From Bacillota bacterium (GTDB lineage Bacteria > Bacillota > Dethiobacteria > SKNC01), in assembly GCA_007121375.1 (NCBI GenBank), contig SKLX01000009.1, positions 1 to 36,703 on the forward strand: a DNA stretch of 36,703 nucleotides, given 5' to 3'. This document shows, in pieces, positions 7,443 through 33,927 of this stretch. Position 1 is the stretch's first letter; the number at the start of each line of letters is the position of its first letter. A model generated the notes under the pieces. It saw only the letters and a list, made by a program, of their open reading frames with translations. It had not been told where the DNA came from and did no database searches. Position numbers and translations under genes: made by a program.

Positions 7443-7536
<94 letters not shown>

Positions 7537-10524: not shown

Positions 10525-10601
10525 TGGTGCGCCCGGCAGGACTCGAACCTGCGACCTCCTGATTCGTAGTCAGTTACTCTGTCCAGCTGAGCTACGGGCG
10601 C
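10525..10601 (-). tRNA. tRNA-Arg (anticodon ACG), CCA encoded
   Basis: Acceptor GCGCCCG/CGGGCGC, anticodon loop CTACGAA, T arm GCAGG-TTCGAGT-CCTGC, discriminator A. It closely resembles bacterial tRNA-Arg(ACG). Confidence 0.9.
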
Positions 10602-10623
10602 ATGTGTTATAATAAATAAATTA

Positions 10624-10718
10624 TGGCGGAGAGAGAGGGATTCGAACCCTCGATACGGGCTTTTACCCGTATAATCGCTTAGCAGGCGACCGCCTTCGAC
10701 CAGCTCGGCCATCTCTCC
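10624..10718 (-). tRNA. tRNA-Ser (anticodon GCU), CCA encoded, long variable arm
   Basis: Acceptor GGAGAGA/TCTCTCC, anticodon stem GTCGC/GCGAT with loop CTGCTAA, T arm GAGGG-TTCGAAT-CCCTC. Confidence 0.9.
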
Positions 10719-10761
10719 ACATAAATCTTAGTCTATGGTAGCTTTACCCAAAGTACTTTTA

Positions 10762-10848
10762 TGGCGGAGGGGGTGGGATTCGAACCCACGGCTCTTTCGA
10801 GTCACCGGTTTTCAAGACCGGCTCCTTAAACCCCTCGGACACCCCTCC
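10762..10848 (-). tRNA. tRNA-Ser (anticodon UGA), CCA encoded, long variable arm
   Basis: Acceptor GGAGGGG/CCCCTCC, anticodon stem CCGGT/ACCGG with loop CTTGAAA, T arm GTGGG-TTCGAAT-CCCAC. Confidence 0.9.
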
Positions 10849-10944: not shown

Positions 10945-12231
10945 TTAAGGGTTTTTGGTGATTTTACCCTCCTCCAGGTCGGGGAAATAGGGAAGGAGCA
11001 CTTCCGGGATCCGTATGCTTCCATCCTCCTCCTGGTAATTTTCCAAAATTGCTGCCACGGTACGCCCCACGGCTACCCCGGAACCATTAAGGGTATGTAC
11101 ATATTCGGCTTTAGCCTTGGGAGAAGGCCGGTAGCGGATATTAGCCCGCCGGGCCTGAAAGTCCCGGAAATTACTGCAGGAAGAAACCTCCCGATATCCT
11201 TCATAAGCGGGCATCCACAGCTCCAGGTCATACTTTTTAGCCGCCGCAAACCCCAGGTCCCCTGCACACATGAGAACTACCCGGTAGGGAAGCTGAAGAA
11301 GCTTTAAAACCTCCTCCGCATCCCGGACCAGCTTTTCCAGCTCCTCCTCCGAATCCTGGGGGGTGGTGAATTTAACCAGTTCCACCTTGTTAAACTGGTG
11401 CTGGCGGATCAAGCCCCGGGTATCCCTCCCGTGGGCTCCCGCTTCAGCCCTGAAACAGGCACTGTAGGCGGTAAAATACTTGGGTAGTTCTTCTCCTCGC
11501 AGAATTTCCTCCCGATAAAGGTTGGTCACGGGAACCTCCGCCGTAGGGATAAGGTAGTAATCGGTGTTTTCCACCTTAAAGGCATCCTCTTCAAACTTGG
11601 GAAGCTGGCCCGTTCCAATCATGCTGTCCCGGTGGACCATAAAGGGAGGGAATACCTCCTGGTAACCGTGTTTACCCGTATGAAGATCCAGCATGAAATT
11701 AATCAAAGCCCTTTCCAGCCGGGCTCCCAGGCCGTAATAGAGGGCAAACCGGGATCCTGTGATCTTTCCTGCCCTTTCAAAGTCCAAAATACCTGCCTCC
11801 ATGCCCAGGTCCCAGTGGGCTTTAGGCTGAAAACTAAACCTGGGAGGCTGACCCCATTCCCTTACCGTTACGTTATCCTCTTCCTCTTTTCCTGGAGGGA
11901 CATCATCATCGGGAATATTAGGTATATTTAAAAGGATCCTTTCTATTTCTTCCTGGACCCTTTTAACCTTCTCGTCCAGGTCCTTGATTTCCGAGCTAAC
12001 CGACTTCATCTCCGTTATCATTTCGGAAGCCTCCTGGCCTTCCTTTTTTCTTCGCCCGATCTCTTCAGAGACTATATTTCTCCTGTTTTTCAACTGTTCA
12101 ACCTGGTATAGGAACTCCCTTCTCTCCCGGTCCCTTTCCAGAAGGTTATCCAGGTCCCCGGTTTCTCCCTTTTTTTTAAGGGCTTCCCGGACCTGTTCCA
12201 TATTTTGACGTATATATTTTAAATCCAACAT
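10945..12231 (-). CDS. serS: Seryl-tRNA synthetase
   Basis: 428 aa. It has an N-terminal coiled-coil arm ([10 protein letters not shown]...) and a class II core ([27 protein letters not shown]). RBS GAGGGGTG. Confidence 0.95.
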
Positions 12232-12260: not shown

Positions 12261-13967
12261 CTACATCTTCGACGGAGCTTTTATACCCAGGAGATATAAC
12301 CCGTTTACCAGCACCTGCCGGACTCCGTCTATAAGGATCAGCCTGGCTTCCTTTAACCCCTCTTCAGCCGTCAGTACGGGGCAGCGGTGGTAAAAATAAT
12401 TGAAATCACTGGTTAGATCCAGGAGATACCGGGCCAGGGTAGAAGGTTTATAAGTTTCGGCAGCCCTTTTAATATGTTCGCTAAACCTGGCCAAAAGGGA
12501 AATAAGCCTTTGCTCCTCTTCCCTTTCCAAAAGACTTAAATCTGCCTCCCGGGAGGCCTGAGCCCCTTCCTTCCTCAGTATGCTGCATATTCGGGCATGG
12601 GCATACTGAATGTAAGGGGAGGTTTCACCACTGAAATCCAGGACTTTATCCCAGTCAAAGTCTATATCCTTAACCCGGTCATTACTTAAATCCCCAAAAA
12701 TTACCGACCCTATACCAACCATTTCCGCAACCTCATCTTTATTTTCCAGATCCGGGTTTTTTTCCTCAATAATATCCCGGGCTAAAGCTACTGCTTTATC
12801 AATGACGTCCTCCAGGAAAATAAGGTTTCCCATGCGGGTAGACATTTTTCCTTCCTTAAACTTAATCAGCCCAAAGGGAACATGAACGCACCGGCTGGCC
12901 CAGGGTAAACCCATAAGCTCCAGGATCTTAAAAAGCTGTTGAAAGTGCAGGGATTGGGCCGCTCCCACCACATAGATAAGTTTTTGGAATTTATATTTTT
13001 CGTAGCGGTATAAAGCTGCACACAGGTCCCGGGTAGCATAAAGGGTAGCCCCATCTTTTTTCCGAAGGAGGGCGGGAGGCAAACCATAGGGCTCCAGGTC
13101 TACAATAAGGGCCCCTTCACTTTTTCTTACAATTTCCTCCTCCTCCAGCCGCTTTAGGGTAGAAGAAAGCATCTGGTTGTAAAAACTTTCTCCCTGCTCC
13201 TCATCAAACTCAATGTCCAGCCGCCTGTAAATCCGCCGGAACTCCTTCAGGCTTAATTCCCTGAATTTGTGCCACAGTTCTACCGCTTCCTCCTCCCCCT
13301 CTTCCAGCCTCTTAAACCAATGCCTGCCCTCCTCCTCAAGATTTTCATCTCCCGAGGCTTCCTGGTGAAAACTGACATACAGTTGATACAGGTACTGGAT
13401 AGGATCCTCTTTTAAAGAATCTTCATCTCCCCATCGCTTGTAGGCAGAGATAAGTTTTCCAAACTGGGTCCCCCAGTCTCCCAGATGATTAATGCCCACG
13501 CAGTTGTAACCCAGGGCCTCATATAAGCGATAGAGGGAATTGCCTATCACTGTAGAGCGAAGATGACCTATACCAAAGGGCTTGGCTATGTTGGGGGCTG
13601 AAAAATCAATAACTACATTTTCCCCTCCCCCTTCTTTAACCTTTCCATAATCCTTTCCTTTTTCATAAATCTCTTTTAGGGTTTCCCGGGTTAATTTTTC
13701 CCGGTTACAGTAAAAATTTAAATAAGGTCCGGCGCTTTTAACCTCTTTAATCCATTCTCCCAGGCCCTTCTTTGAAATTTCCTGGGCCAGATATTGAGAT
13801 ATCTCCTGGGGAGGTCTTTTCCACTTTTTAGACAAAATAAAGCAGGGAAAGGCATAATCCCCCAGCCCTGCATCGGGTGGAATGCTCAGGTTTTGTTGGA
13901 TTTCCTCCTGGCCAAGTTGAACCAGGCTTTCTAAAGCCTTAATAATTTCCTCTTTAAACTCCTGCAT
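12261..13967 (-). CDS. argS: Arginyl-tRNA synthetase
   Basis: 568 aa. The class I HIGH-like motif reads PNIAKPFGIGHLRS, and the protein ends in the DALR anticodon-binding domain (...ARLILIDGVRQVL). It stops 29 nt before serS. Confidence 0.95.
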   Translation of the reverse strand: MQEFKEEIIKALESLVQLGQEEIQQNLSIPPDAGLGDYAFPCFILSKKWKRPPQEISQYLAQEISKKGLGEWIKEVKSAGPYLNFYCNREKLTRETLKEIYEKGKDYGKVKEGGGENVVIDFSAPNIAKPFGIGHLRSTVIGNSLYRLYEALGYNCVGINHLGDWGTQFGKLISAYKRWGDEDSLKEDPIQYLYQLYVSFHQEASGDENLEEEGRHWFKRLEEGEEEAVELWHKFRELSLKEFRRIYRRLDIEFDEEQGESFYNQMLSSTLKRLEEEEIVRKSEGALIVDLEPYGLPPALLRKKDGATLYATRDLCAALYRYEKYKFQKLIYVVGAAQSLHFQQLFKILELMGLPWASRCVHVPFGLIKFKEGKMSTRMGNLIFLEDVIDKAVALARDIIEEKNPDLENKDEVAEMVGIGSVIFGDLSNDRVKDIDFDWDKVLDFSGETSPYIQYAHARICSILRKEGAQASREADLSLLEREEEQRLISLLARFSEHIKRAAETYKPSTLARYLLDLTSDFNYFYHRCPVLTAEEGLKEARLILIDGVRQVLVNGLYLLGIKAPSKM

Positions 13968-14069: not shown

Positions 14070-16130
14070 TCATACCTCCGGGTTTAGATAGGGGTATTTT
14101 TCCAGGGGACTCTTCAGGTCTATAAACTCCGGGTGGGGGGACATCTTCTCCCCTTCAATATATATCTGTACTTTTTCAGGTTCAAAGTTACTGGCCAGGG
14201 TATAAGTCAACCCCTCCAGGATAACCTGGGCCCGGGCCTTCAGTTGGGGATTTTCTATTCCTTTAAAAATCTCTAAAAATTCCCTGCTTAGATTCACATA
14301 CAACAAATCATCTTTTATTCCCACACTGAGGACCTCCACTTCCCTGGCAAAATAGTTGGAGGTCTCTTGAAAAAATTTTTGAGTAAGGTTTTGAAGAGAA
14401 TTATCTTCTCTCATGTAAGGAAAGACTTCCCTGGGAAGTAAATAATACCTGTATCCCGAGCGAAAAGGAAGATATAGCAGGGGCTGGTCTTTTCTAAAGG
14501 TGCTGCTGTCAAATGCCTCTCCGATATAGATGCCCTGATCACCAAAAAAATCCCTTTCCTCTCCTTCTACCAGAAACTGCACTTCCTCTACTTTGGGAAA
14601 CTGGGTTACCGTATAAAGGATGGAATTAATTACCCCCAGGCTGTAATTGGTTCCCCCCGCCCGGGTTAGTTCTTCAGGCAGGTCAATATAAAGGGTTCCG
14701 CCTTCTTCTTTTATTTCAATATCAACACCCTTGGGGATGGTCCTTACCAGGTAACTGTTAGCCCGGGGGCCCTTTATCAATTCCTCCAGGGCCCTTTGTA
14801 CCACATCATTTCCCCTTCCAATATTCCTGCTGACAGGAATGAGAACCATAGCATTCTCATCATAAAAATACAGTTTAATCCTTGGATCATCATTAACCTG
14901 GATTGATTGGGAAGGCACGTAGAAAAACTGTTCTTCCCTGGCAGGAACATACTCCCCCAGGGTTTTCCTATCCAGGTTTAAAATATAAACATTGCCGTCG
15001 TCACAGCCCAGAACCAGCTTTTCCCCTTCCCAGCAAAGGGCCATCTCTTCCGCCCTGCTTCCTACTTCTATTTCCCGGCGCAGACGTCCCTGGTTATCAA
15101 AATAATTAATCAGGGTAAAATCTTCGCTGTAATGGCGCCAGGAGGAGGTTACAATCCGCCGGCCATCTTTAGAAAGGTCTACCAAAGAATCATCCCTGAT
15201 CCTTTTCTTCCACAGGAGTTCCCCTTCCGTGTTCAAGAAAAACAGGTTATCTTCTCCTCCTCCAAAACTATTGTAAGCCAGAAGATGTTCTTTGTTATCT
15301 GATATCTCCAGCTGGTTTATTGTTACTCCCGGGTCAAAACTCCACAATTCCTTTCCTTCCCTGGAAAAAAGGATTATTTTTTCTGAAGATGCCACTGCAA
15401 TATAATCACCCTGGTGGGATACCTCCAGGGTTGAATACCCCTTCTTTTCCCACAAAGGTTCTCCTTCCCTGTTAAAGGTGTAAAGGATGGACTCAGCTTC
15501 TTCTTCCGCTAAAAAGGCTATTATGTCGCCTTCAGAGCTCATATCAACCATGTTAACTTTTGGTATTTCCTTTCTCCAAACTGTATCTCCCTGGGAATCC
15601 AGGAAAACAATAGCTCCTTCATCCTTCTCCCTATCATTAACTACCGCTAATACATAGTTTCCTTCCGAACATACCTGAATACTTTCCAGAGGCATGGATA
15701 AATCTTTTTCCCAGGTAATTTCTTCATCTTCAATATAATATATCTTCCCCTCTTTGGTTCCCACCGCAATATTCGTTCCCTCATTGTTCAAGCCTGCCCC
15801 CAGAAGGGGTTCCTCAAAATCTTTTTCCCAAAGGAGATTGCCCTCTTTATCCAATAAAACCAGCCTGTCTCCGGAGCAAATAATGGCCCTTGAGCCATCG
15901 CAAGTAAATGCAGCACTGTTCAATTCTACTCTGGGGCGCAGCAAAGAAAAACGCCCTTCCAGGGACCTTCCCTGGTTAAAAGACCCTTCTTCTTCATAAT
16001 AGGGCTCCACGGGCCTTCCCTGGACATCTTTTCCGTAAAAGGAAAAAGACATCTGGCATCCAGCGGTAAATAACAATAGTAATATAATTAAAGGCAGGAT
16101 AACTTTTCGTGCGGCAAAATTATAGGTCAT
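14070..16130 (-). CDS. Lipoprotein with an N-terminal repeat (beta-propeller-like) domain and two C-terminal GerMN domains (GerM/LpqB-related)
   Basis: 686 aa. The signal peptide ends in a lipobox-like LFTAGC. About seven ~40-aa repeats each end in G-x-x-(L/V)-W-x-K (DKEGNLLWEKD, DSQGDTVWRKE, NREGEPLWEKK, SREGKELWSFD, NTEGELLWKKR ...). Two GerMN-like units follow (LYFYDENAMVLIPVSRNI...ALEELIKGP...GTLYIDL...EEVQFLVEGE, and LLYLPFRSG...LLYVNLSREF...KVQIYIEGE). Confidence 0.8.
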   Translation of the reverse strand: MTYNFAARKVILPLIILLLLFTAGCQMSFSFYGKDVQGRPVEPYYEEEGSFNQGRSLEGRFSLLRPRVELNSAAFTCDGSRAIICSGDRLVLLDKEGNLLWEKDFEEPLLGAGLNNEGTNIAVGTKEGKIYYIEDEEITWEKDLSMPLESIQVCSEGNYVLAVVNDREKDEGAIVFLDSQGDTVWRKEIPKVNMVDMSSEGDIIAFLAEEEAESILYTFNREGEPLWEKKGYSTLEVSHQGDYIAVASSEKIILFSREGKELWSFDPGVTINQLEISDNKEHLLAYNSFGGGEDNLFFLNTEGELLWKKRIRDDSLVDLSKDGRRIVTSSWRHYSEDFTLINYFDNQGRLRREIEVGSRAEEMALCWEGEKLVLGCDDGNVYILNLDRKTLGEYVPAREEQFFYVPSQSIQVNDDPRIKLYFYDENAMVLIPVSRNIGRGNDVVQRALEELIKGPRANSYLVRTIPKGVDIEIKEEGGTLYIDLPEELTRAGGTNYSLGVINSILYTVTQFPKVEEVQFLVEGEERDFFGDQGIYIGEAFDSSTFRKDQPLLYLPFRSGYRYYLLPREVFPYMREDNSLQNLTQKFFQETSNYFAREVEVLSVGIKDDLLYVNLSREFLEIFKGIENPQLKARAQVILEGLTYTLASNFEPEKVQIYIEGEKMSPHPEFIDLKSPLEKYPYLNPEV

Positions 16131-16275
16131 GATATTCCCCCCGTTACCCTTACAGTTTAAATATTTATCGTCTATTCTCCTTTAATTCTTCCTTATAAAT
16201 AGATTACATAAGTGTTAAACTTTTTTAACTTTATAAGGGAAGCCTTATTCTATAGGGGCGAAGCAAACCTTTTCA

Positions 16276-18066
16276 CTAATTATTTTCATTAACTTTCTTG
16301 GGAAGGGTAAAGAAAAAGGTTGTCCCGTAGCCCTCTTTACTCTCTATCCATATCCTGCCACCGTGGGCTGTAATAATTTCCCTGCATATAGCCAGGCCCA
16401 GCCCTGTTCCTCCCATTTCCCGGGAGCGGGTCTTATCTACCCGGTAAAACCGCTCAAATATATTAGCCTGGTCCTCCTGGGGAATTCCCGGCCCCGTATC
16501 CTTGACTTTTATCAAGATCTCGTCTCCCTGGTCTTCTCCTTCTACCTTCAACCATCCCCCTTCGGGGGTATATTTAATGGCGTTATCCATCAAGTTAATC
16601 AAAACCTGCTTGATCTGATCTTCATTAACCAGTAGGGGTGGAAAGTCAGGAATATCCCAGGTTAATTCCAGTTGGTTTCTTTCTGCCCGGGGATACAACC
16701 TGACCAGAGTATCATCAAAGACTTTTTTCAAGTCTGTTTTTTTCAGGTCTTTTCTTCCCTTTAATGATTCCAACCGGGTAAGGTCCAAAATATCCTGGAC
16801 CAAAAGATTTAACCTGTCAATTTCGGCATCGATGTCCTTTAAAAATTCCTCCCCCTCCTCCTTGACCAGGTCATAATCCAGCATATTTTTAACCAAAAGA
16901 TTTACCGAAGAAAGGGGGGTGCGAAGTTCATGGGAGACATCGGCAATAAATTCCCTTTGTTTTTGTTCCAGCTTCCTCATGCTGGTTATATCCTGCAGGA
17001 CTGCCACGGATCCGTATAACTCCCCGTCAGTCCCTAAAATAGGAGAAACAGCTACCTTAAAAACCTGGTCGCCCCAGGCCAGTTCCCCTGTTAGTTCCCT
17101 TTTATCCTTCCATACTTTTATAAAATACCGGTCCAGCTGGTGGTCAATATTTATTTCCCCCAGGCTTTTTCCCATATTTTCTTCTGCATCGAAGTTAAAG
17201 ATCTTTTCCGCCACGGGATTGGCCAGGATCAGCTTGCCATCTGCGTTTACGGCAATTACTCCATCAATCATATTGGTAAGGATGGCCGTTAATTTATTCC
17301 TCTCCTTGGAAACCTCCTCTATGGTATCCTGCAGGCGGCGGGTCATTTCCCGGAGTCGAGCCATCATGGTATTGAACTGGATGGCCAGCTGGCCTATTTC
17401 ATCATTATTAACTACTTTAATATTTTGATCCAGGCTCCCCTCAGCCGTTTCTCTAACTACCTGGGTAAGGGCCTTAATAGGTTGTAAGATTCTTTTAGCA
17501 AAAACTGAACCCAGACTTCCTACCAGGATCATAGCCATCAGGGTAGTATAAATTAAAATGTTTCTTATGTCCTCCAGCATCTTATAGATAGAGCTCAAGG
17601 AGTAAGATAAAAAAACCGCTCCCCGGGGAGTTCCTCCTTCATATACGGGAACGGCAACCTGCATAACCCACTGGCCCGTCTGGGAGCTTCTCTGAATACT
17701 GTAACCTTCCCCCTCTTCAAAGGCCTGGGTGATTTCTTTCCGTTCCAGGAGACTCCCAATCAGCCCTTCTACCCGTACCGAATCACCTACCACCATGTTA
17801 TTATGGTTAACAATAATAACCCGGGCTCCAATCTGTCGGCTAAAGTCCTCGGCCAGGCTGCTTAAAGTAACATAATCCGGGGCCCCAACTAATGAATCAT
17901 GAGAAAAATCGGCTACCAGTCTGCCTGCCTGATTCAGGACATCCTTCTGGTAGCCGAGATGATAGTTTTCTAACAGGTTGAGCAAAAACACGTTCACTAA
18001 AAACATCACCAGGAGGACTATAACCACATAAGTAATAATTAACCTGGATCGAAAGCTGCTGAACAC
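16276..18066 (-). CDS. Sensor histidine kinase, WalK/YycG-like (2 TM, ~140 aa extracytoplasmic loop, HAMP, PAS, HisKA, HATPase)
   Basis: 596 aa. The H-box is SHELRTPL, the N-box is LMDNAIKYT, and the G-boxes are DTGPGI and GGTGLGLAI. TM segments lie near residues 10-30 and 170-190. The GTG start shares one nt with the response-regulator stop (TAGTG). Confidence 0.9.
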   Translation of the reverse strand: MFSSFRSRLIITYVVIVLLVMFLVNVFLLNLLENYHLGYQKDVLNQAGRLVADFSHDSLVGAPDYVTLSSLAEDFSRQIGARVIIVNHNNMVVGDSVRVEGLIGSLLERKEITQAFEEGEGYSIQRSSQTGQWVMQVAVPVYEGGTPRGAVFLSYSLSSIYKMLEDIRNILIYTTLMAMILVGSLGSVFAKRILQPIKALTQVVRETAEGSLDQNIKVVNNDEIGQLAIQFNTMMARLREMTRRLQDTIEEVSKERNKLTAILTNMIDGVIAVNADGKLILANPVAEKIFNFDAEENMGKSLGEINIDHQLDRYFIKVWKDKRELTGELAWGDQVFKVAVSPILGTDGELYGSVAVLQDITSMRKLEQKQREFIADVSHELRTPLSSVNLLVKNMLDYDLVKEEGEEFLKDIDAEIDRLNLLVQDILDLTRLESLKGRKDLKKTDLKKVFDDTLVRLYPRAERNQLELTWDIPDFPPLLVNEDQIKQVLINLMDNAIKYTPEGGWLKVEGEDQGDEILIKVKDTGPGIPQEDQANIFERFYRVDKTRSREMGGTGLGLAICREIITAHGGRIWIESKEGYGTTFFFTLPKKVNENN

Positions 18067-18755
18067 TAACGACCCTCCCTGAATTTATAGCCTGTCCCCC
18101 ATACCGTTAAAATATACCGGGGGTTGCTGGGGTCCATCTCAATCTTTTCCCGCAGATGCCTGATATGAACATCCACTGTCCTGGCGTCACCGTAGTAATT
18201 ATATCCCCAAATTTGCTCCAGCAGCTGTTCCCGGGAATAAACCCTTCCCGGATTGGAAGCCAGCAGGTTAAGGAGAGCAAATTCTTTAGAAGTCAGGTCA
18301 ATTTCCTGGTCCTTTACCCTCACCCTGTGCTGGTACAGGTCTATTTGTAGATCTTGTATTTTAATCAAGTTTTTTATAGAAGAATTCTGGGAATTGCTTC
18401 GGCGAAGGATAGCCTTAACCCGGGCCAGAAGTTCCCGGGGATTAAAGGGCTTGGTAATATAATCATCTGCCCCCAGTTCTAATCCCAGGATTTTATCAAT
18501 ATCATCCCCTTTGGCCGTAAGCATGATTATAGGGATATCGTAATTTTTGCGAACCCTTCGGCAGACTTCAAAACCATCAAGGCCGGGAAGCATAAGATCA
18601 AGAATTAAAAGGTCCGGGTTTTCAGCTTCCATCTTTTTTAGAGCTTCCTCTCCTTCATATGCAGGTATTACCTGGTAGCCCTCCTTTTCCAGGTTAAAGG
18701 TTAAGGCTTTCACCAGAGTTTTTTCATCGTCAACAAGCAATATTTTTCTTTTCAT
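18066..18755 (-). CDS. OmpR/PhoB-family response regulator, WalR/YycF-like
   Basis: 229 aa. The receiver has DD...D(54)...T...K, and IIMLTAKGDDIDKILGLELGADDYITKPFNPRELLARVKAILRR is very close to WalR. The winged-helix C-terminus reads WGYNYYGDARTVDVHIRHLREKIE. By eye I cannot separate WalR-like from PhoP- or ResD-like. Confidence 0.9.
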   Translation of the reverse strand: MKRKILLVDDEKTLVKALTFNLEKEGYQVIPAYEGEEALKKMEAENPDLLILDLMLPGLDGFEVCRRVRKNYDIPIIMLTAKGDDIDKILGLELGADDYITKPFNPRELLARVKAILRRSNSQNSSIKNLIKIQDLQIDLYQHRVRVKDQEIDLTSKEFALLNLLASNPGRVYSREQLLEQIWGYNYYGDARTVDVHIRHLREKIEMDPSNPRYILTVWGTGYKFREGR

Positions 18756-18764
18756 TCCCTCACC

Positions 18765-19406
18765 TCAGTTATCCTCTTTTTTATTCCTGCTTAACTCTTT
18801 ATATTCTCTTTTTACCTCCTGAAAATCCTGCCAGACCAGCTTCTTTTTTTTAGGATCTCTCAATAAAGCAGCCGGGTGAAAGGTAGGAATTATTTTTAAC
18901 CCCTCCTTCTCCAACCACCCACCCCTGATACGGGTTATCTGGGCGCTGGGGTCAACTAAAACTTTAGTAGAAAGGGCTCCCAGGCATATAATTATGCGGG
19001 GAGAAATAATTTTAATTTGTCTTTGAAGATGAGGGTAACAGGCCTTTACCTCTTCATGGGTGGGAGTCCTATTATTCGGGGGACGGCATTTTACTATATT
19101 GGTTATATATACTTCTTCCCTTTTAAAGCCTGCTGCTTCCAGGATTCTATCCAGGAGTTGACCTGCCCTTCCCACGAAGGGCCGTCCCAACCGATCCTCG
19201 TCTCCCCCGGGGCCCTCTCCTACCAGCATTATTAGGGACTGGGGATTTCCTTCACCAAAAACTACTTGCTTACAACCTTCCCGAAGCTGGCAACGGCGGC
19301 ATCTTTTTACTTCCTCTTCCATTTCCTTTAAATCTTTATCCCTCTTTGCCAGCCTTTCCTTTTCCTCCTGGGAGTTTAAATAATCAAAAAGGCTTTCCTG
19401 CTTCAA
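18765..19406 (-). CDS. Family 4 uracil-DNA glycosylase (4Fe-4S type)
   Basis: The family-4 motifs are GEGPGGDEDRLGRPFVGRAGQLLDRIL and HPAALLR. Cys ligands are CRRCQLREGC ... KC. I prefer the TTG at 19406 (AGGGGTGG upstream). The track ORF begins at a TTG at 19439 that has no SD. Confidence 0.85.
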   Translation of the reverse strand: MKQESLFDYLNSQEEKERLAKRDKDLKEMEEEVKRCRRCQLREGCKQVVFGEGNPQSLIMLVGEGPGGDEDRLGRPFVGRAGQLLDRILEAAGFKREEVYITNIVKCRPPNNRTPTHEEVKACYPHLQRQIKIISPRIIICLGALSTKVLVDPSAQITRIRGGWLEKEGLKIIPTFHPAALLRDPKKKKLVWQDFQEVKREYKELSRNKKEDN

Positions 19407-19518
19407 AACCCCACCCCTTTCCGTAATTCCCTGGCACAACCCTATTCATGAATTTTTTTTGCCTTACTTTTTATACACTTTTATTATAATATTTTAACAT
19501 ATTAGAGAAGTTTTTGGC

Positions 19519-19551
19519 ATAAAAAAATAAATAGACTCCCTGAAGGAGTCC
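19519..19551 (-). terminator. Rho-independent terminator after pdxT
   Basis: A 6-7 bp stem GACTCC / GGAGTC with a 5-nt loop, followed on the minus strand by TATTTATTTTTTTATG. Confidence 0.5.
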
Positions 19552-19584: not shown

Positions 19585-20172
19585 TTAACATACCTTTGGG
19601 GACGATTCTTCTCCAACCATTTTTAAGAAAAACTTATGAAACCGCAGGTCTTCCGTAAGCTCCGGGTGAAAGGAGGTTGCCAAAAGATTTCTCTCCCTTA
19701 CCCCTACCACCTTCCCCTGGAAAGATGAAAGGATTTCTACTTCCGGTCCAGTCCTTGTCACGTAGGGCGCCCGGATAAAAACTCCCGTAAAGGGTTCTTC
19801 TCCCAGCCCATGTATGAATAGCTCTCCTTCAAAACTTTCCTTCTGGCGACCGAAGGCATTTCTTCTAACCCGAATATCCATAAGTCCCAGGTGAGGGCTT
19901 TCCCCCTCTATTTCCCGGGCTATCAGGACCAGGCCAGCGCAAGTCCCCCAGATAGGCTTATCCTTTTTATGAAATTCAATTATTTCCCTGTCCAGCTGAA
20001 ACTCCCTTATAAGCCTCCCTATGGTAGTGCTTTCTCCTCCAGGAATTATAAGGCCTTCTATCCCGGCCAGATCTCCCTTTTTCTTTACGGGAACCCCTTC
20101 TGCCCCACATTTTTCTAAAATGTCTATATGCTCCGATACGGCTCCCTGGATATTCAAGACTCCTACTTTCAC
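19585..20172 (-). CDS. pdxT: Pyridoxal 5'-phosphate synthase, glutaminase subunit
   Basis: 195 aa, MKVGVLNIQGAVSEH..., with the GATase triad context (GTCAG, ..FHPE). GTG start, with GGAGG 7 nt upstream. Confidence 0.95.
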   Translation of the reverse strand: MKVGVLNIQGAVSEHIDILEKCGAEGVPVKKKGDLAGIEGLIIPGGESTTIGRLIREFQLDREIIEFHKKDKPIWGTCAGLVLIAREIEGESPHLGLMDIRVRRNAFGRQKESFEGELFIHGLGEEPFTGVFIRAPYVTRTGPEVEILSSFQGKVVGVRERNLLATSFHPELTEDLRFHKFFLKMVGEESSPKVC

Positions 20173-20189: not shown

Positions 20190-21074
20190 TTACCATCCTC
20201 TAACCTGCATCCTTTCCTTTTCATCAAGGGTGGCAATATCTATTCCGGTCATAGCGTCTCCCAGCCCCCGGGAAACCCGGGAGAGTACCTGGGGATCATC
20301 ATAATTCAAGGTAGCCTCCACAATGGCCCTGGCCCTTTTTTCCGGGTCCCGGGACTTAAAGATTCCCGAACCCACAAAGACTCCATCAGAACCCAGCTGC
20401 ATCATGAGGGCAGCATCAGCAGGAGTTGCAATACCTCCAGCGGCAAAGTTTACCACCGGCAATCGCCCCAGCTTTTTTACTTCTTTTATAAGCTCCAGGG
20501 AAGCACCCAGGCTTTTAGCTTCCGCCGTCAGTTCCTCCTCCCGCATATTAGAAACCTTCCTTATTTGGGCCATTATTAGCCTCATATGACTTACGGCCTC
20601 TACCACATTTCCCGTTCCCGGTTCACCCTTGGTGCGGACCATGGCCGCTCCTTCGCCGATGCGCCTTAAAGCTTCCCCCAGGTCCCGGGCACCACAAACA
20701 AAGGGCACCGTAAACCTATCCTTGTCAATATGATAAAGCTCGTCGGCAGGGGTTAAGACTTCACTTTCATCTATATAGTCAACCCCCAGGGATTCCAGTA
20801 TTTGGGCTTCAACAAAATGGCCTATCCTTACCTTGGCCATTACCGGTATAGTTACCTCTTCCATAATTTTCTCTATAATTTCAGGGTCAGCCATCCTGGC
20901 CACTCCCCCTACTGCCCGTATGTCAGCAGGTACCCTCTCCAGGGCCATCACCGCCACGGCTCCTGCCTCCTGGGCAATTTTTGCCTGTTCGGGAGTAGTT
21001 ACATCCATAATCACTCCGCCCTTTTGCATTTCCGCCAGACCCTTTTTTACTCTGAAAGTCCCTCGTTCCACCAT
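20190..21074 (-). CDS. pdxS: Pyridoxal 5'-phosphate synthase, lyase subunit
   Basis: Near-identical blocks to B. subtilis PdxS ([59 protein letters not shown]). The ATG at 21074 gives the canonical N-terminus [12 protein letters not shown]. The track start at 21101 adds 9 aa. Confidence 0.95.
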
Positions 21075-21133
21075 TTTATCCCTTCTTTCCTCCTGCTCCA
21101 TAGTGTTAAAGTTTCCTTAATTATTACCATATA

Positions 21134-33660: not shown

Positions 33661-33701
33661 TAAAAATAAAACCTTTCGCCCGGTGCTTAAGGGGCGAAAG
33701 G
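33661..33701 (-). terminator. Intrinsic terminator (attenuator) of the T-box leader
   Basis: A 10-bp stem CCTTTCGCCC / GGGCGAAAGG with a 10-nt loop, then TTTTATTTTA on the minus strand. Its 5' arm can instead pair with the T-box sequence (GCGAAA/TTTCGC) to form the antiterminator. Confidence 0.8.
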
Positions 33702-33927
33702 ATTATTTCGCGGTACCACCCTTATTACCCTGGCATACAAAACCAGGGCCTCTTCAGGTTAAACCCCTGGATAACGGCCAGGCCGGCTCCGCTTACTAAA
33801 AGTTCAGCGGGCAGCTCCAGGGTGACTTGGAACCCGAGCAAGGCACCGGTTTCCCAGCTATTCACCGGCTCTCTGTATCCTGTGCTCCGGCCTACTTGTC
33901 CCCTTCACAGCTTTTTTTCAAAAAATT
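33661..33927 (-). promoter_or_regulatory. T-box riboswitch leader of the ilv-leu operon, apparent specifier GUC (Val)
   Basis: All canonical elements occur in order on the minus strand: AGUA (caAGUAgg), AG box AGAGAG, distal loop GCUGGGA, specifier loop CCAAGUCA (GUC at 33824-33826, followed by A), AGUA-II, F-box CCGUUA, stem III CCCUGG...CCAGGG, the T-box GGGUGGUACCGCG (33709-33720), and the terminator. Confidence 0.85.

What the first reader, a model, noticed from the sequence alone, without database searches (positions are those of the whole stretch)
14070..18755. WalRK-like two-component system followed by a propeller+GerMN lipoprotein: a possible Firmicute analogue of the actinobacterial MtrA-MtrB-LpqB three-component system
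Seen in the sequence:
- The response regulator and kinase are translationally coupled (TAGTG, 1-nt overlap).
- The kinase has a ~140 aa extracytoplasmic loop between two TM helices.
- A lipoprotein gene starts 145 nt downstream of the kinase stop, and I find no intrinsic terminator in that gap.
- The lipoprotein combines beta-propeller-like repeats with two GerMN domains.

Established knowledge:
- In Actinobacteria the essential MtrAB system is always followed by lpqB.
- LpqB is a lipoprotein built from GerMN plus a beta-propeller (the Pfam Germane and Gmad1 families).
- LpqB interacts with the MtrB sensor domain.
- In Bacillus the homologous WalRK system is instead modulated by YycH and YycI, which are absent here.

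Inference: this lipoprotein may be the extracytoplasmic partner of the kinase. Its domains are in the opposite order to LpqB (propeller N-terminal, GerMN C-terminal), which suggests independent assembly of the same module. A weak WalR-type half-matching site, TGTAAT-N5-TATAAG, lies at 16192-16208 in front of the lipoprotein gene.
Basis: partly seen in the sequence, partly recalled or inferred. Interest (0 to 1): 0.7.

Follow-up and report, generated by a model that had tools for sequence, protein, structure and literature searches.

The report
WalRK-like system with propeller–GerMN lipoprotein
A cell-wall-type two-component sensor system is followed, in every relative found, by a gene for a membrane-tethered surface protein (8-bladed propeller plus two GerMN domains), which makes that protein a likely but untested third partner of the kinase, as LpqB is in mycobacteria.

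Summary
On the minus strand lie a WalR-like regulator (18755..18066), a WalK-like kinase overlapping it by 1 nt (18066..16276), a 145-nt gap with no terminator, and a 686-aa lipoprotein (16130..14070). The lipoprotein has a signal peptide with Cys25, a disordered tether, an 8-bladed PQQ/WD40-like propeller and two GerMN domains.

The synteny test passed. All 31 genome loci with a homologue (class Dethiobacteria) keep RR-HK-lipoprotein. The trio also survives where one or both flanks have changed, in variants with a membrane anchor instead of a lipobox, and in propeller-only variants.

Separately, WalRK-like pairs in Lachnospirales are followed by GerMN-only proteins in 26 of 60 informative metagenome loci, in at least six contexts.

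Not supported:
- The proposed WalR site is an ordinary 2-mismatch match and is not conserved.
- The propeller is not Gmad1, so this is not an LpqB orthologue.

C. difficile walA-walRK had already prompted the MtrAB-LpqB analogy for a Firmicute.

No interaction evidence exists, and a GerM-like sporulation role is not excluded.

Verdict: a plausible three-component system and a new variant of a known kind. Interest is moderate.

The parts
19533..19551 (-). Terminator-like hairpin plus T-run after pdxT. It marks the probable upstream boundary of the transcription unit. An AT-rich promoter-like stretch (TATAAT around 19481-19486) follows.
   Evidence: GGACTCCTTCAGGGAGTCT + ATTTATTTTT; sequence
18765..19439 (-). 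Family-4 uracil-DNA glycosylase gene. It ends 9 nt before walR and is probably the first gene of the operon. The true start is likely the TTG near 19405.
   Evidence: (UDG_fam4, 217.9 bits against a cut-off of 125.3). It lies upstream of the RR in 29 of 31 genome loci.
18066..18755 (-). OmpR-family response regulator, WalR/YycF-like (229 aa)
   Evidence: Response_reg + Trans_reg_C; best hit YycF at 307.8 bits (cut-off 340); MtrA at 270.3 bits (cut-off 300).
16276..18066 (-). WalK-like sensor histidine kinase (596 aa): TM, Cache, TM, HAMP, PAS, HisKA, HATPase. Its GTG start overlaps the RR stop by 1 nt.
   Evidence: the WalK model aligns 1-589 to 1-593/594 at 436.9 bits (cut-off 725).
17563..17973 (-). 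Extracytoplasmic sensor loop of the kinase (about residues 32-168), Cache_WalK/dCache_1-like
   Evidence: dCache_1 40-168; Cache_WalK 71-153; hydrophobic segments read
16131..16275 (-). 145-nt intergenic gap with no intrinsic terminator. The RBS GGGGGG lies 7 nt before the ATG. An AT-rich element, TTAAAAAAnTTTAACACTTAT(G/A)TAA(T/C)CTATTT, is conserved only among the three closest relatives.
16056..16130 (-). Signal peptide and lipobox (residues 1-25, ...LLFTAG-C25)
   Evidence: sequence. The AF2 model has a helix at 5-22. Nearly all relatives have a Cys after a hydrophobic stretch.
15963..16055 (-). Disordered tether (residues 26-56) carrying the nearly invariant P-V-E-P motif (residues 40-43, window 16002-16013)
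   Evidence: pLDDT below 50 for residues 24-53. P40, E42 and P43 are at least 90% conserved. The motif is also present in membrane-anchored and propeller-only variants.
14976..15962 (-). Eight-bladed beta-propeller (residues 57-385), PQQ_2/DUF5711/WD40-like, with the conserved motif SSWRHYSED
   Evidence: best structural matches are WD40 propellers (ODA16, TBLR1) and the designed Cake8 protein.
14541..14882 (-). GerMN domain 1 (residues 417-530)
   Evidence: Germane 419-526, profile positions 1-116/117; B. subtilis GerM 6gzb, E 4e-8
14136..14480 (-). GerMN domain 2 (residues about 551-665), followed by a conserved C-terminal tail (Y-L-N-P-E here; Y-I-N-P-E in the family consensus)
   Evidence: second Germane stretch; same strand/helix pattern; N683 and E685 invariant

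Best explanation
**What it is.** udg-walR-walK-lipoprotein is one transcription unit that encodes a WalRK-like envelope two-component system plus a dedicated extracytoplasmic accessory protein.

**Shown by the sequence and comparisons:**
- The regulator and kinase are translationally coupled.
- The accessory gene follows the kinase without a terminator.
- Its product has a signal peptide with a lipobox Cys.
- After the Cys come a flexible tether of about 30 residues with a conserved P-V-E-P motif, an 8-bladed propeller and two GerMN domains.

**Inferred location.** The protein is exported and lipid-anchored at Cys25. This places it on the outer face of the membrane, in the same compartment as the kinase's Cache sensor domain.

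**Inferred mechanism.** The protein contacts the sensor domain of the kinase, or presents a peptidoglycan-derived ligand to it. This sets the kinase/phosphatase balance and so the level of phosphorylated regulator, coupling wall status to the regulon.
- The propeller is the likely protein-docking part, because it is the part retained in every Dethiobacteria variant.
- The GerMN pair is the likely wall-binding or oligomerising part.

The mechanism is an analogy with LpqB-MtrB, WalH/WalI-WalK and the proposed WalA-WalK. It has not been measured.
For: **Gene order in Dethiobacteria**
- RR-HK-lipoprotein is kept in 31/31 genome loci, down to 28-34% lipoprotein identity.
- It is also kept in loci L032, L034, L036, L037/38, L039/40 and L041.
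- In L036 the upstream genes differ (aminotransferase, FemAB, no UDG or pdxST).
- In L039/L040 both flanks differ (DUF2225 upstream; abhydrolase, LuxR-type RR and transglutaminase downstream). The trio stays intact in both.

**Spacing**
- By my approximate start calls, the HK-to-lipoprotein gap is under 60 nt in about 11 of the 29 genome loci where I could place a start, and about 100-150 nt in most of the others.
- Most gaps have no terminator-like site, including the window's.

**Variants**
- The anchor varies: lipobox or an uncleaved TM helix.
- The GerMN pair can be lost.
- The position behind a Cache_WalK kinase does not change.

**A second clade**
- In Lachnospirales (Defluviitalea, Anaerotignum, Lachnospiraceae) an RR-HK pair is followed by a membrane-anchored GerMN-only protein.
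- The RR is 55-60% identical to the window's RR. The one pair I scanned (L043) scores best against the WalR and WalK models. Some sources name the RR VicR or WalR.
- This holds in 26 of 60 informative metagenome loci, with gaps of -4 to 170 nt (two high-GC loci have 438 nt).
- At least six different genomic contexts are represented.

**Precedents**
- LpqB is a GerMN + propeller lipoprotein encoded next to mtrAB. It co-precipitates with MtrB (PMC2732212; PMC12818412).
- C. difficile WalA is a propeller lipoprotein in the wal operon (PMC9210968).

**Evolutionary rate**
- The lipoprotein evolves fast (mean distance 1.0-1.2) while the RR is highly conserved (0.34). I read this pattern as consistent with an accessory partner of an essential system.
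Against: - There is no interaction, expression or phenotype evidence of any kind.
- In most loci the whole pdxS-pdxT-udg-RR-HK-lipo-argS-serS block is syntenic. Most of the synteny count is therefore shared ancestry rather than independent retention.
- Three loci have gaps of 260-540 nt, and several have terminator-like hairpins. Co-transcription is therefore not universal.
- A profile of the GerMN half scores TCS-linked and unlinked GerMN proteins alike. Nothing in the sequence marks a 'signalling' GerMN subtype.
- The clade probably includes sporulating organisms. D. alkaliphilus has Spo0A and SsdC (PMC7769602). A GerM-like sporulation role therefore remains possible.
- The RR and HK fall below the curated WalR and WalK equivalog cut-offs.
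- The mirror-tree signal is not specific to the sensor domain.
Confidence: 0.5

Rival explanations
1. The protein is this lineage's GerM. It would be a sporulation lipoprotein that helps assemble the SpoIIIA-SpoIIQ channel and has acquired an N-terminal propeller. On this view its gene lies behind walRK for historical reasons and has no signalling role.
For: - It has two GerMN domains and a lipoprotein anchor, like B. subtilis GerM.
- The GerMN half is no more similar to TCS-linked GerMN proteins than to unlinked ones.
- GerM is patchy in Clostridia, and its gene position differs between lineages (PMC7924749).
- D. alkaliphilus carries Spo0A and SsdC.
Against: - Canonical gerM lies next to rph and racE. 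That is not the case here.
- The GerMN pair is dispensable: propeller-only versions keep the slot behind the kinase.
- The gap holds no CATA-type -10 element of the sigma-E/sigma-K kind. This rests on my own reading of the sequence, which is weak evidence.
- Adjacency to the kinase survives changes of flank.
Confidence: 0.2
2. The protein is a cell-envelope factor, for example a peptidoglycan-binding scaffold or a regulator of wall hydrolases. It would be co-expressed with WalRK as an output or housekeeping partner and would not feed back on the kinase.
For: - It has the same operon structure as in the main explanation.
- GerMN domains have been proposed to bind peptidoglycan or polysaccharide (PMC2732212).
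- BamB-like propellers are scaffolds.
- The neighbourhood contains ddl and, in L036, FemAB.
Against: - Every characterised accessory protein encoded in wal or mtr operons (WalH, WalI, LpqB) acts on the kinase. This statement rests on PMC9210968 and on established knowledge.
- No enzymatic domain was detected.
Confidence: 0.2
3. The adjacency is a coincidence. An unrelated lipoprotein gene has been frozen inside a conserved origin-proximal housekeeping block.
For: The whole block from pdxS to serS is conserved in most loci. The window lies in a conserved gyrA...serS...tadA region.
Against: - The trio stays together where the flanks have changed.
- An independent RR-HK-GerMN linkage exists in Lachnospirales, in several contexts.
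- Some loci have overlapping or very short intergenic distances.
Confidence: 0.1

Closest known systems
MtrA-MtrB-LpqB three-component system of Actinobacteria
   Same: - An OmpR-type RR plus a kinase with an extracytoplasmic loop, followed directly by a lipoprotein gene.
- The lipoprotein combines GerMN with a beta-propeller.
- The system belongs to the WalRK/MtrAB group of wall and division regulators.
   Different: - The RR and HK score higher against WalR and WalK than against MtrA and MtrB, and fall below both sets of cut-offs.
- The propeller is an 8-bladed PQQ/WD40-like domain, not Gmad1. There is no PF10647 match at E <= 0.1.
- The propeller is N-terminal rather than C-terminal.
- There are two GerMN domains.
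- The kinase here has a cytoplasmic PAS domain.
C. difficile walA-walR-walK-truA2 operon (Müh, Ellermeier & Weiss 2022, PMC9210968)
   Same: - A Firmicute Wal-type system without WalH or WalI.
- A beta-propeller lipoprotein is encoded in the operon.
- Those authors had already drawn the MtrAB-lipoprotein parallel.
   Different: - walA lies upstream of walR, and that paper ascribes no GerMN domains to WalA.
- C. difficile WalK lacks PAS. So do the Dethiobacter-type relatives, but not the window's kinase.
- I could not test sequence homology between WalA and this propeller, because the WalA sequence was not obtainable with these tools.
B. subtilis / S. aureus WalRK with WalH (YycH) and WalI (YycI)
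   Same: The kinase architecture is the same: TM, Cache, TM, HAMP, PAS, HisKA, HATPase. The match to the WalK model is full-length. Accessory extracytoplasmic protein(s) are encoded directly after the kinase.
   Different: - No YycH, YycI or YycJ domains occur in the window.
- The accessory protein is a single lipoprotein with unrelated folds.
B. subtilis GerM (PDB 6GZB)
   Same: A lipoprotein with two tandem GerMN domains (E 4e-8).
   Different: - This protein has an extra 330-residue propeller.
- Its genomic context is different: canonical gerM sits beside rph and racE.
- GerM has no known link to a two-component system.

Membership tests
MtrAB-LpqB | Response regulator is an MtrA orthologue | tested here: not met
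   NF040689 MtrA scores 270.3 bits against a cut-off of 300. YycF scores higher.
MtrAB-LpqB | Kinase is an MtrB orthologue | tested here: not met
   NF040691 scores 215.3 bits against a cut-off of 450. Only the catalytic half matches.
MtrAB-LpqB | Lipoprotein gene lies immediately downstream of the kinase gene | tested here: met
   145-nt gap with no terminator. Conserved in 31/31 loci.
MtrAB-LpqB | LpqB architecture: GerMN followed by a Gmad1 (PF10647) propeller | tested here: not met
   Germane is present. There is no Gmad1 hit at E <= 0.1. The propeller is of the PQQ_2/DUF5711 type and is N-terminal.
MtrAB-LpqB | Lipoprotein binds the kinase sensor domain and modulates signalling | not testable with these tools
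   The structure tool returns neither complexes nor PAE.
WalRK (YycFG) | RR reaches the YycF equivalog score | tested here: not met
   It is the best hit, but at 307.8 bits against a cut-off of 340.
WalRK (YycFG) | Kinase has the WalK domain order, including an extracellular Cache_WalK domain | tested here: met
   Pfam Cache_WalK scores 28.4 bits against a cut-off of 27, together with HAMP, PAS, HisKA and HATPase. The WalK model aligns end to end, but at 436.9 bits against a cut-off of 725.
WalRK (YycFG) | walH and walI (yycH, yycI) lie downstream (Bacilli type) | tested here: not met
   No such domains occur in any ORF scanned in the window.
WalRK (YycFG) | Essential; controls peptidoglycan hydrolase genes through TGTWAH-N5-TGTWAH sites | tested here: inconclusive
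   Essentiality cannot be tested here. Motif matches in the window are only modestly above chance: 77 against 50 +/- 7.6 at up to 2 mismatches.
C. difficile WalA-type accessory lipoprotein | Beta-propeller lipoprotein encoded in the wal operon | tested here: met
   description of WalA
C. difficile WalA-type accessory lipoprotein | Sequence or fold homology to WalA (CD630_17810) | not tested
The only lead is the DUF5711 match (47.4 bits).
GerM (sporulation) | Lipoprotein with two GerMN domains | tested here: met
GerM (sporulation) | Canonical context (rph, racE) and an architecture of only the two GerMN domains | tested here: not met
   The window context is udg-walRK...argS. Canonical context is seen in L044. 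An extra propeller is present.
GerM (sporulation) | Mother-cell expression and a role in SpoIIQ/SpoIIIAH localisation | not testable with these tools
   This needs expression data and genetics.

The most novel reading that the evidence does not exclude
Linkage of a GerMN-domain surface protein to the WalRK/MtrAB class of wall-homeostasis two-component systems may be ancient and shared by Actinobacteria (LpqB), Dethiobacteria (propeller + GerMN) and Lachnospirales (GerMN only). On this reading:
- The GerMN protein is the original extracytoplasmic co-sensor.
- WalH/WalI of Bacilli are a later replacement.
- Sporulation GerM is a specialised offshoot.
- The conserved P-V-E-P tether motif and the propeller are lineage-specific docking devices for the kinase's Cache domain.
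Probability: 0.2. Interest if true: 0.75.

Novelty: new variant of a known kind. Interest (0 to 1): 0.55.

Why it matters
**Open questions this bears on**
- WalRK and MtrAB are essential or near-essential regulators of wall growth and are antibiotic targets.
- How their kinases sense the wall is still debated.
- LpqB's role is called 'likely' but remains undefined even in 2026 (PMC12818412).

**What a Firmicute set of GerMN or propeller accessory proteins would provide**
- Comparative material to decide which domain contacts the kinase.
- A candidate for the missing WalH/WalI function in Clostridia-like lineages.
- A non-sporulation role for the widespread GerMN domain.
- A culturable test organism, Dethiobacter alkaliphilus.

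**If the link is only positional**, the result is an ordinary lineage-specific lipoprotein.

Tried and rejected
**1. WalR box at 16192-16208: rejected as evidence.**
- It is a 2-mismatch match among 77 in the window.
- Its TGT is not kept in L034 or L035.

**2. A 'split' propeller gene plus GerMN gene in L042: rejected.**
- At first it looked like a Rosetta-stone case.
- It is a single in-frame TAA relative to L003, at 96.7% nucleotide identity with no gaps.

**3. A signalling subtype of GerMN: not found.**
- A profile of the Dethiobacteria GerMN half scores TCS-linked and unlinked proteins equally.

**4. Mirror-tree co-evolution: too weak and unspecific to count.**
- After removing the argS/serS distance, the propeller residuals correlate with the HK catalytic half (0.76), the sensor (0.46) and the RR (0.18).

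**5. DUF5711 as a bridge to WalA: unresolved.**
- The one stand-alone DUF5711 protein I looked up (P0041) has no TCS nearby.
- Propeller repeat families cross-hit heavily: 45,647 proteins at E <= 1e-3.

**6. Pseudo-multimer AF2 run: not submitted.**
- I prepared paired kinase-loop + linker + propeller sequences.

**7. Sigma-70 promoter in the gap: nothing convincing.**
- Only a 9/12 match was found.
- I saw no CATA-type sporulation -10 element by eye.

**8. Literature search for a published WalK-GerMN link in Firmicutes: none found in the held library**.


Full report
**1. What is in the window**

All genes of the region lie on the minus strand.

| Gene | Coordinates | Size |
|---|---|---|
| pdxS | 21101..20190 | |
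| pdxT | 20172..19585 | |
| family-4 uracil-DNA glycosylase | 19439..18765 | |
| response regulator | 18755..18066 | 229 aa |
| histidine kinase (GTG start) | 18066..16276 | 596 aa |
| lipoprotein | 16130..14070 | 686 aa |
| argS | 13967..12261 | |
| serS | 12231..10945 | |

- The regulator's TAG and the kinase's GTG share one base.
- The glycosylase gene ends 9 nt before the regulator's ATG.
- A hairpin with a T-run follows pdxT at 19551-19533. The transcription unit therefore probably starts there and includes the glycosylase gene.
- The wider window is an origin-proximal housekeeping region: gyrA C-terminus, ilv/leu genes with a T-box, an EF-G paralogue, ddl, then the genes above, then tRNA-Ser/Ser/Arg, an MrfA-like helicase, tadA and PolX.
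- None of the ORFs I scanned in the window is a recognisable sporulation gene.

**2. The two-component system**

- The regulator has Response_reg and Trans_reg_C domains. Its best NCBIfam model is YycF/WalR at 307.8 bits (cut-off 340). MtrA is second at 270.3 bits (cut-off 300).
- The kinase aligns end to end with the WalK model (residues 1-589 on positions 1-593 of 594) at 436.9 bits, against an equivalog cut-off of 725.
- Its architecture is the Bacillus WalK one: a hydrophobic segment at about 9-31; a loop of about 137 residues matching dCache_1 and Cache_WalK (28.4 bits, cut-off 27); a second hydrophobic segment at about 169-190; then HAMP, PAS, HisKA and HATPase_c.
- 'WalRK-like' is therefore a fair name. 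'WalRK orthologue' is not established by the curated thresholds.
- No ORF that I scanned in the window has a YycH or YycI domain.

**3. The lipoprotein**

- Pfam finds Germane (114.3 bits, two stretches), PQQ_2 (49.4) and DUF5711 (47.4), all above their cut-offs. There is no Gmad1 match at E <= 0.1.
- Against PDB sequences, the best match is B. subtilis GerM (6gzb, E 4e-8). BamB is next (E 4e-3).
- An AlphaFold2 model built on 24 family members has mean pLDDT 82.5. It shows:
  - a signal-peptide helix (5-22);
  - a low-confidence stretch (24-53);
  - 33 strands between residues 57 and 385, which I read as eight four-stranded blades;
  - two alpha/beta domains (about 417-530 and 551-665).
- Foldseek's top PDB matches include eight-bladed WD40 propellers (ODA16, TBLR1) and the designed Cake8 protein.
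- The N-terminus ends in ...LLFTAG-C25. Nearly all relatives have a Cys after a hydrophobic stretch.
- Inside the disordered tether, P40-V41-E42-P43 is nearly invariant.
- The same P-[VI]-[ED]-P motif recurs in distant variants that differ in anchor and in domain content.

**4. The gap between kinase and lipoprotein**

- The gap is 145 nt. Neither the tool's scan nor my own (with flanks) finds a terminator-like hairpin with a T-run.
- The only sigma-70-like match in the gap is weak, at 9 of 12.
The window has 77 such matches against 50 +/- 7.6 expected.
- In the two closest relatives its TGTAAT half reads TATAAC. I do not count it as evidence.

**5. Relatives and synteny in Dethiobacteria**

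- The word-indexed search of 5.8 billion proteins returned 25 full-length homologues. They include Ca. Syntrophonatronum acetioxidans (75% identity) and Ca. Contubernalis.
- A scan of one genome per GTDB species gave 31 loci. By their titles they are Dethiobacter, Dethiobacteria or soda-lake 'Syntrophomonadaceae' MAGs, plus some bins with evidently mislabelled names.
- Every one of the 31 has RR-HK-lipoprotein in that order. Most have the whole block pdxS-(pdxT)-udg-RR-HK-lipo-argS-serS.
- Because the whole block is conserved, this count mostly reflects shared ancestry.
- In the Dethiobacter-type loci the kinase lacks the cytoplasmic PAS domain: residues about 262-352 of the window's kinase have no counterpart.
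- By my approximate start calls, intergenic distances between kinase and lipoprotein fall into three groups:
  - overlap or under 60 nt in about 11 loci;
  - 100-150 nt in most;
  - 260-540 nt in three.
- Terminator-like sites are absent from most of these gaps.

**6. Evidence that goes beyond shared ancestry**

A full HMMER search with a propeller-only profile found the family again, plus shorter and differently anchored versions. Their loci show the following.

| Locus | What changed | Trio intact? |
|---|---|---|
| L036 | Membrane-anchored full-length protein. Upstream genes are EF-G, FemAB, ddl and an aminotransferase; no udg or pdxST. argS-serS kept. | yes |
| L037/L038 | Membrane-anchored, propeller-only protein (392 aa) between a Cache_WalK kinase and argS. 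| yes |
| L032 | Propeller-only protein. | yes |
| L039/L040 | Propeller-only lipoprotein (393 aa). Both flanks differ: DUF2225 upstream; abhydrolase, LuxR-type regulator and transglutaminase downstream. | yes |

The position behind the kinase is therefore retained while the flanks, the anchor type and the GerMN pair all vary. This is the best argument for a functional link. It also points to the propeller as the constant element within this clade.

**7. A second, independent linkage**

- A search with the GerMN half alone returned a 320-aa membrane-anchored two-GerMN protein, P0216.
- Its gene follows an RR-HK pair in an unrelated context: SCIFF peptide and its radical-SAM maturase upstream, an HD-domain gene downstream.
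- That regulator and kinase also score best against the WalR and WalK models. The kinase lacks PAS.
- A metagenome scan seeded with GerMN-only proteins gave 80 loci. Of the 60 with enough upstream sequence to judge, 26 have a kinase gene directly upstream on the same strand. In 22 of these the regulator is visible as well. Gaps are -4 to 170 nt, except for two high-GC loci at 438 nt.
- The regulators are 55-60% identical to the window's regulator.
- Exact-sequence look-ups place them in Defluviitalea saccharophila, Defluviitaleaceae, Anaerotignum lactatifermentans, Lachnospiraceae and Clostridium sp. MD294. Some sources call them VicR or WalR.
- The commonest context is comEA-like, RR, HK, GerMN, comEC-like, holA-like. 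This is my reading of the flanking sequences, not an HMM result. At least five other contexts exist.
- Pfam does not recognise the extracellular loops of these kinases as Cache_WalK.
- A canonical gerM context (next to rph, with racE nearby, as in B. subtilis) was seen for another GerMN protein.

**8. Limits and contrary evidence**

- Nothing here measures interaction, transcription or phenotype.
- A profile of the Dethiobacteria GerMN half does not separate TCS-linked from unlinked GerMN proteins. Sequence gives no sign of a specialised subtype.
- The lineage probably sporulates. D. alkaliphilus has Spo0A and SsdC (PMC7769602). GerM's distribution in Clostridia is patchy (PMC7924749). A GerM-like role is therefore not excluded.
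- An apparent split into separate propeller and GerMN genes (L042) is only a single in-frame stop codon relative to a 96.7%-identical relative.
- Partial correlations of evolutionary distances link the propeller more to the kinase than to the regulator, but not specifically to the sensor loop. I treat this as inconclusive.

**9. Comparison with what is known**

- Rigden & Galperin 2008 (PMC2732212) defined GerMN and Gmad1 and noted three things. LpqB is a GerMN-Gmad1 fusion found in every actinobacterial genome then sequenced. It is nearly always adjacent to mtrAB. The propeller might mediate the interaction.
- LpqB is still described as a likely periplasmic modulator of MtrB and co-precipitates with it (PMC12818412).
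- Müh et al. 2022 (PMC9210968) described C. difficile walA-walR-walK-truA2. [quoted passage not shown] They called it unique to C. difficile and drew the parallel to the MtrAB lipoprotein.
- The present system works like these, in the sense of gene organisation and predicted location. It is not a member of the LpqB family: there is no Gmad1, the domain order is reversed, and the RR and HK are closer to the Wal models than to the Mtr models.
- I found no paper in the held library that links GerMN proteins to WalRK in Firmicutes.

**10. Verdict**

- I put about 0.5 on the lipoprotein being a functional accessory of the kinase. The rest is split between a GerM-type sporulation role, a co-expressed envelope factor without feedback on the kinase, and coincidence.
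- It is a new variant of a known kind of system.
- The more interesting by-product is that GerMN proteins follow WalRK-like pairs in two distant Firmicute lineages as well as in Actinobacteria.

Noticed in passing
window 18765-19439 (-), and the junction at 18756-18764: A family-4 uracil-DNA glycosylase gene ends 9 nt before walR. It lies directly upstream of the regulator in 29 of 31 genome loci. It probably shares the operon with the two-component system, which is an unusual pairing of DNA repair with envelope signalling.
   Followed up: partly
window 16002-16013 (-), lipoprotein residues 40-43: A nearly invariant P-[VI]-[ED]-P motif sits in the otherwise disordered, low-pLDDT tether between the lipid anchor and the propeller. 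It is kept in lipoprotein, membrane-anchored and propeller-only variants. It is a candidate short docking motif.
   Followed up: partly
L046-L125 (metagenome loci), e.g. L049 2780-5942: In Lachnospirales (Defluviitalea, Anaerotignum, Lachnospiraceae) a WalR/WalK-like pair is followed by a membrane-anchored two-GerMN protein. This holds in 26 of 60 informative loci. The trio is often inserted between comEA-like and comEC-like/holA-like genes.
   Followed up: partly
genome loci L003-L028, kinase gene; window kinase residues about 262-352 (17011-17283): The cytoplasmic PAS domain of the kinase is present in the window and its close relatives. It is absent from the Dethiobacter-type relatives, as in C. 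difficile WalK and MtrB.
   Followed up: partly
L042 2741-2743: One MAG carries an in-frame TAA inside the last propeller blade. Gene callers therefore report separate propeller and GerMN genes. A 96.7%-identical relative (L003) is intact. This is a nonsense mutation or a sequencing error.
   Followed up: yes
L112 and L113, 2065-6924: A high-GC organism has an RR, an HK, a 438-nt gap, a single-GerMN protein of 195 aa and then a Peptidase_C39_2 protein. This is a third architecture of a GerMN gene behind a two-component pair.
   Followed up: no
window 19483-19499 (-): A 1-mismatch WalR-type direct repeat (TGTTAA-N5-TATAAT) overlaps the likely -10 element of the promoter upstream of udg-walRK. 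This could be chance in AT-rich DNA.
   Followed up: no
window 10525-10848 (-) and 7445-7536 (-): tRNA-Ser(TGA), tRNA-Ser(GCT) and tRNA-Arg(ACG) lie directly downstream of argS-serS, so cognate tRNAs sit next to their synthetases. A fourth gene, tRNA-Ser(CGA), lies before tadA.
   Followed up: no
window 33687-33917 (-): A T-box leader (120.3 bits) lies upstream of the class-IV aminotransferase gene that begins the ilv/leu gene cluster.
   Followed up: no
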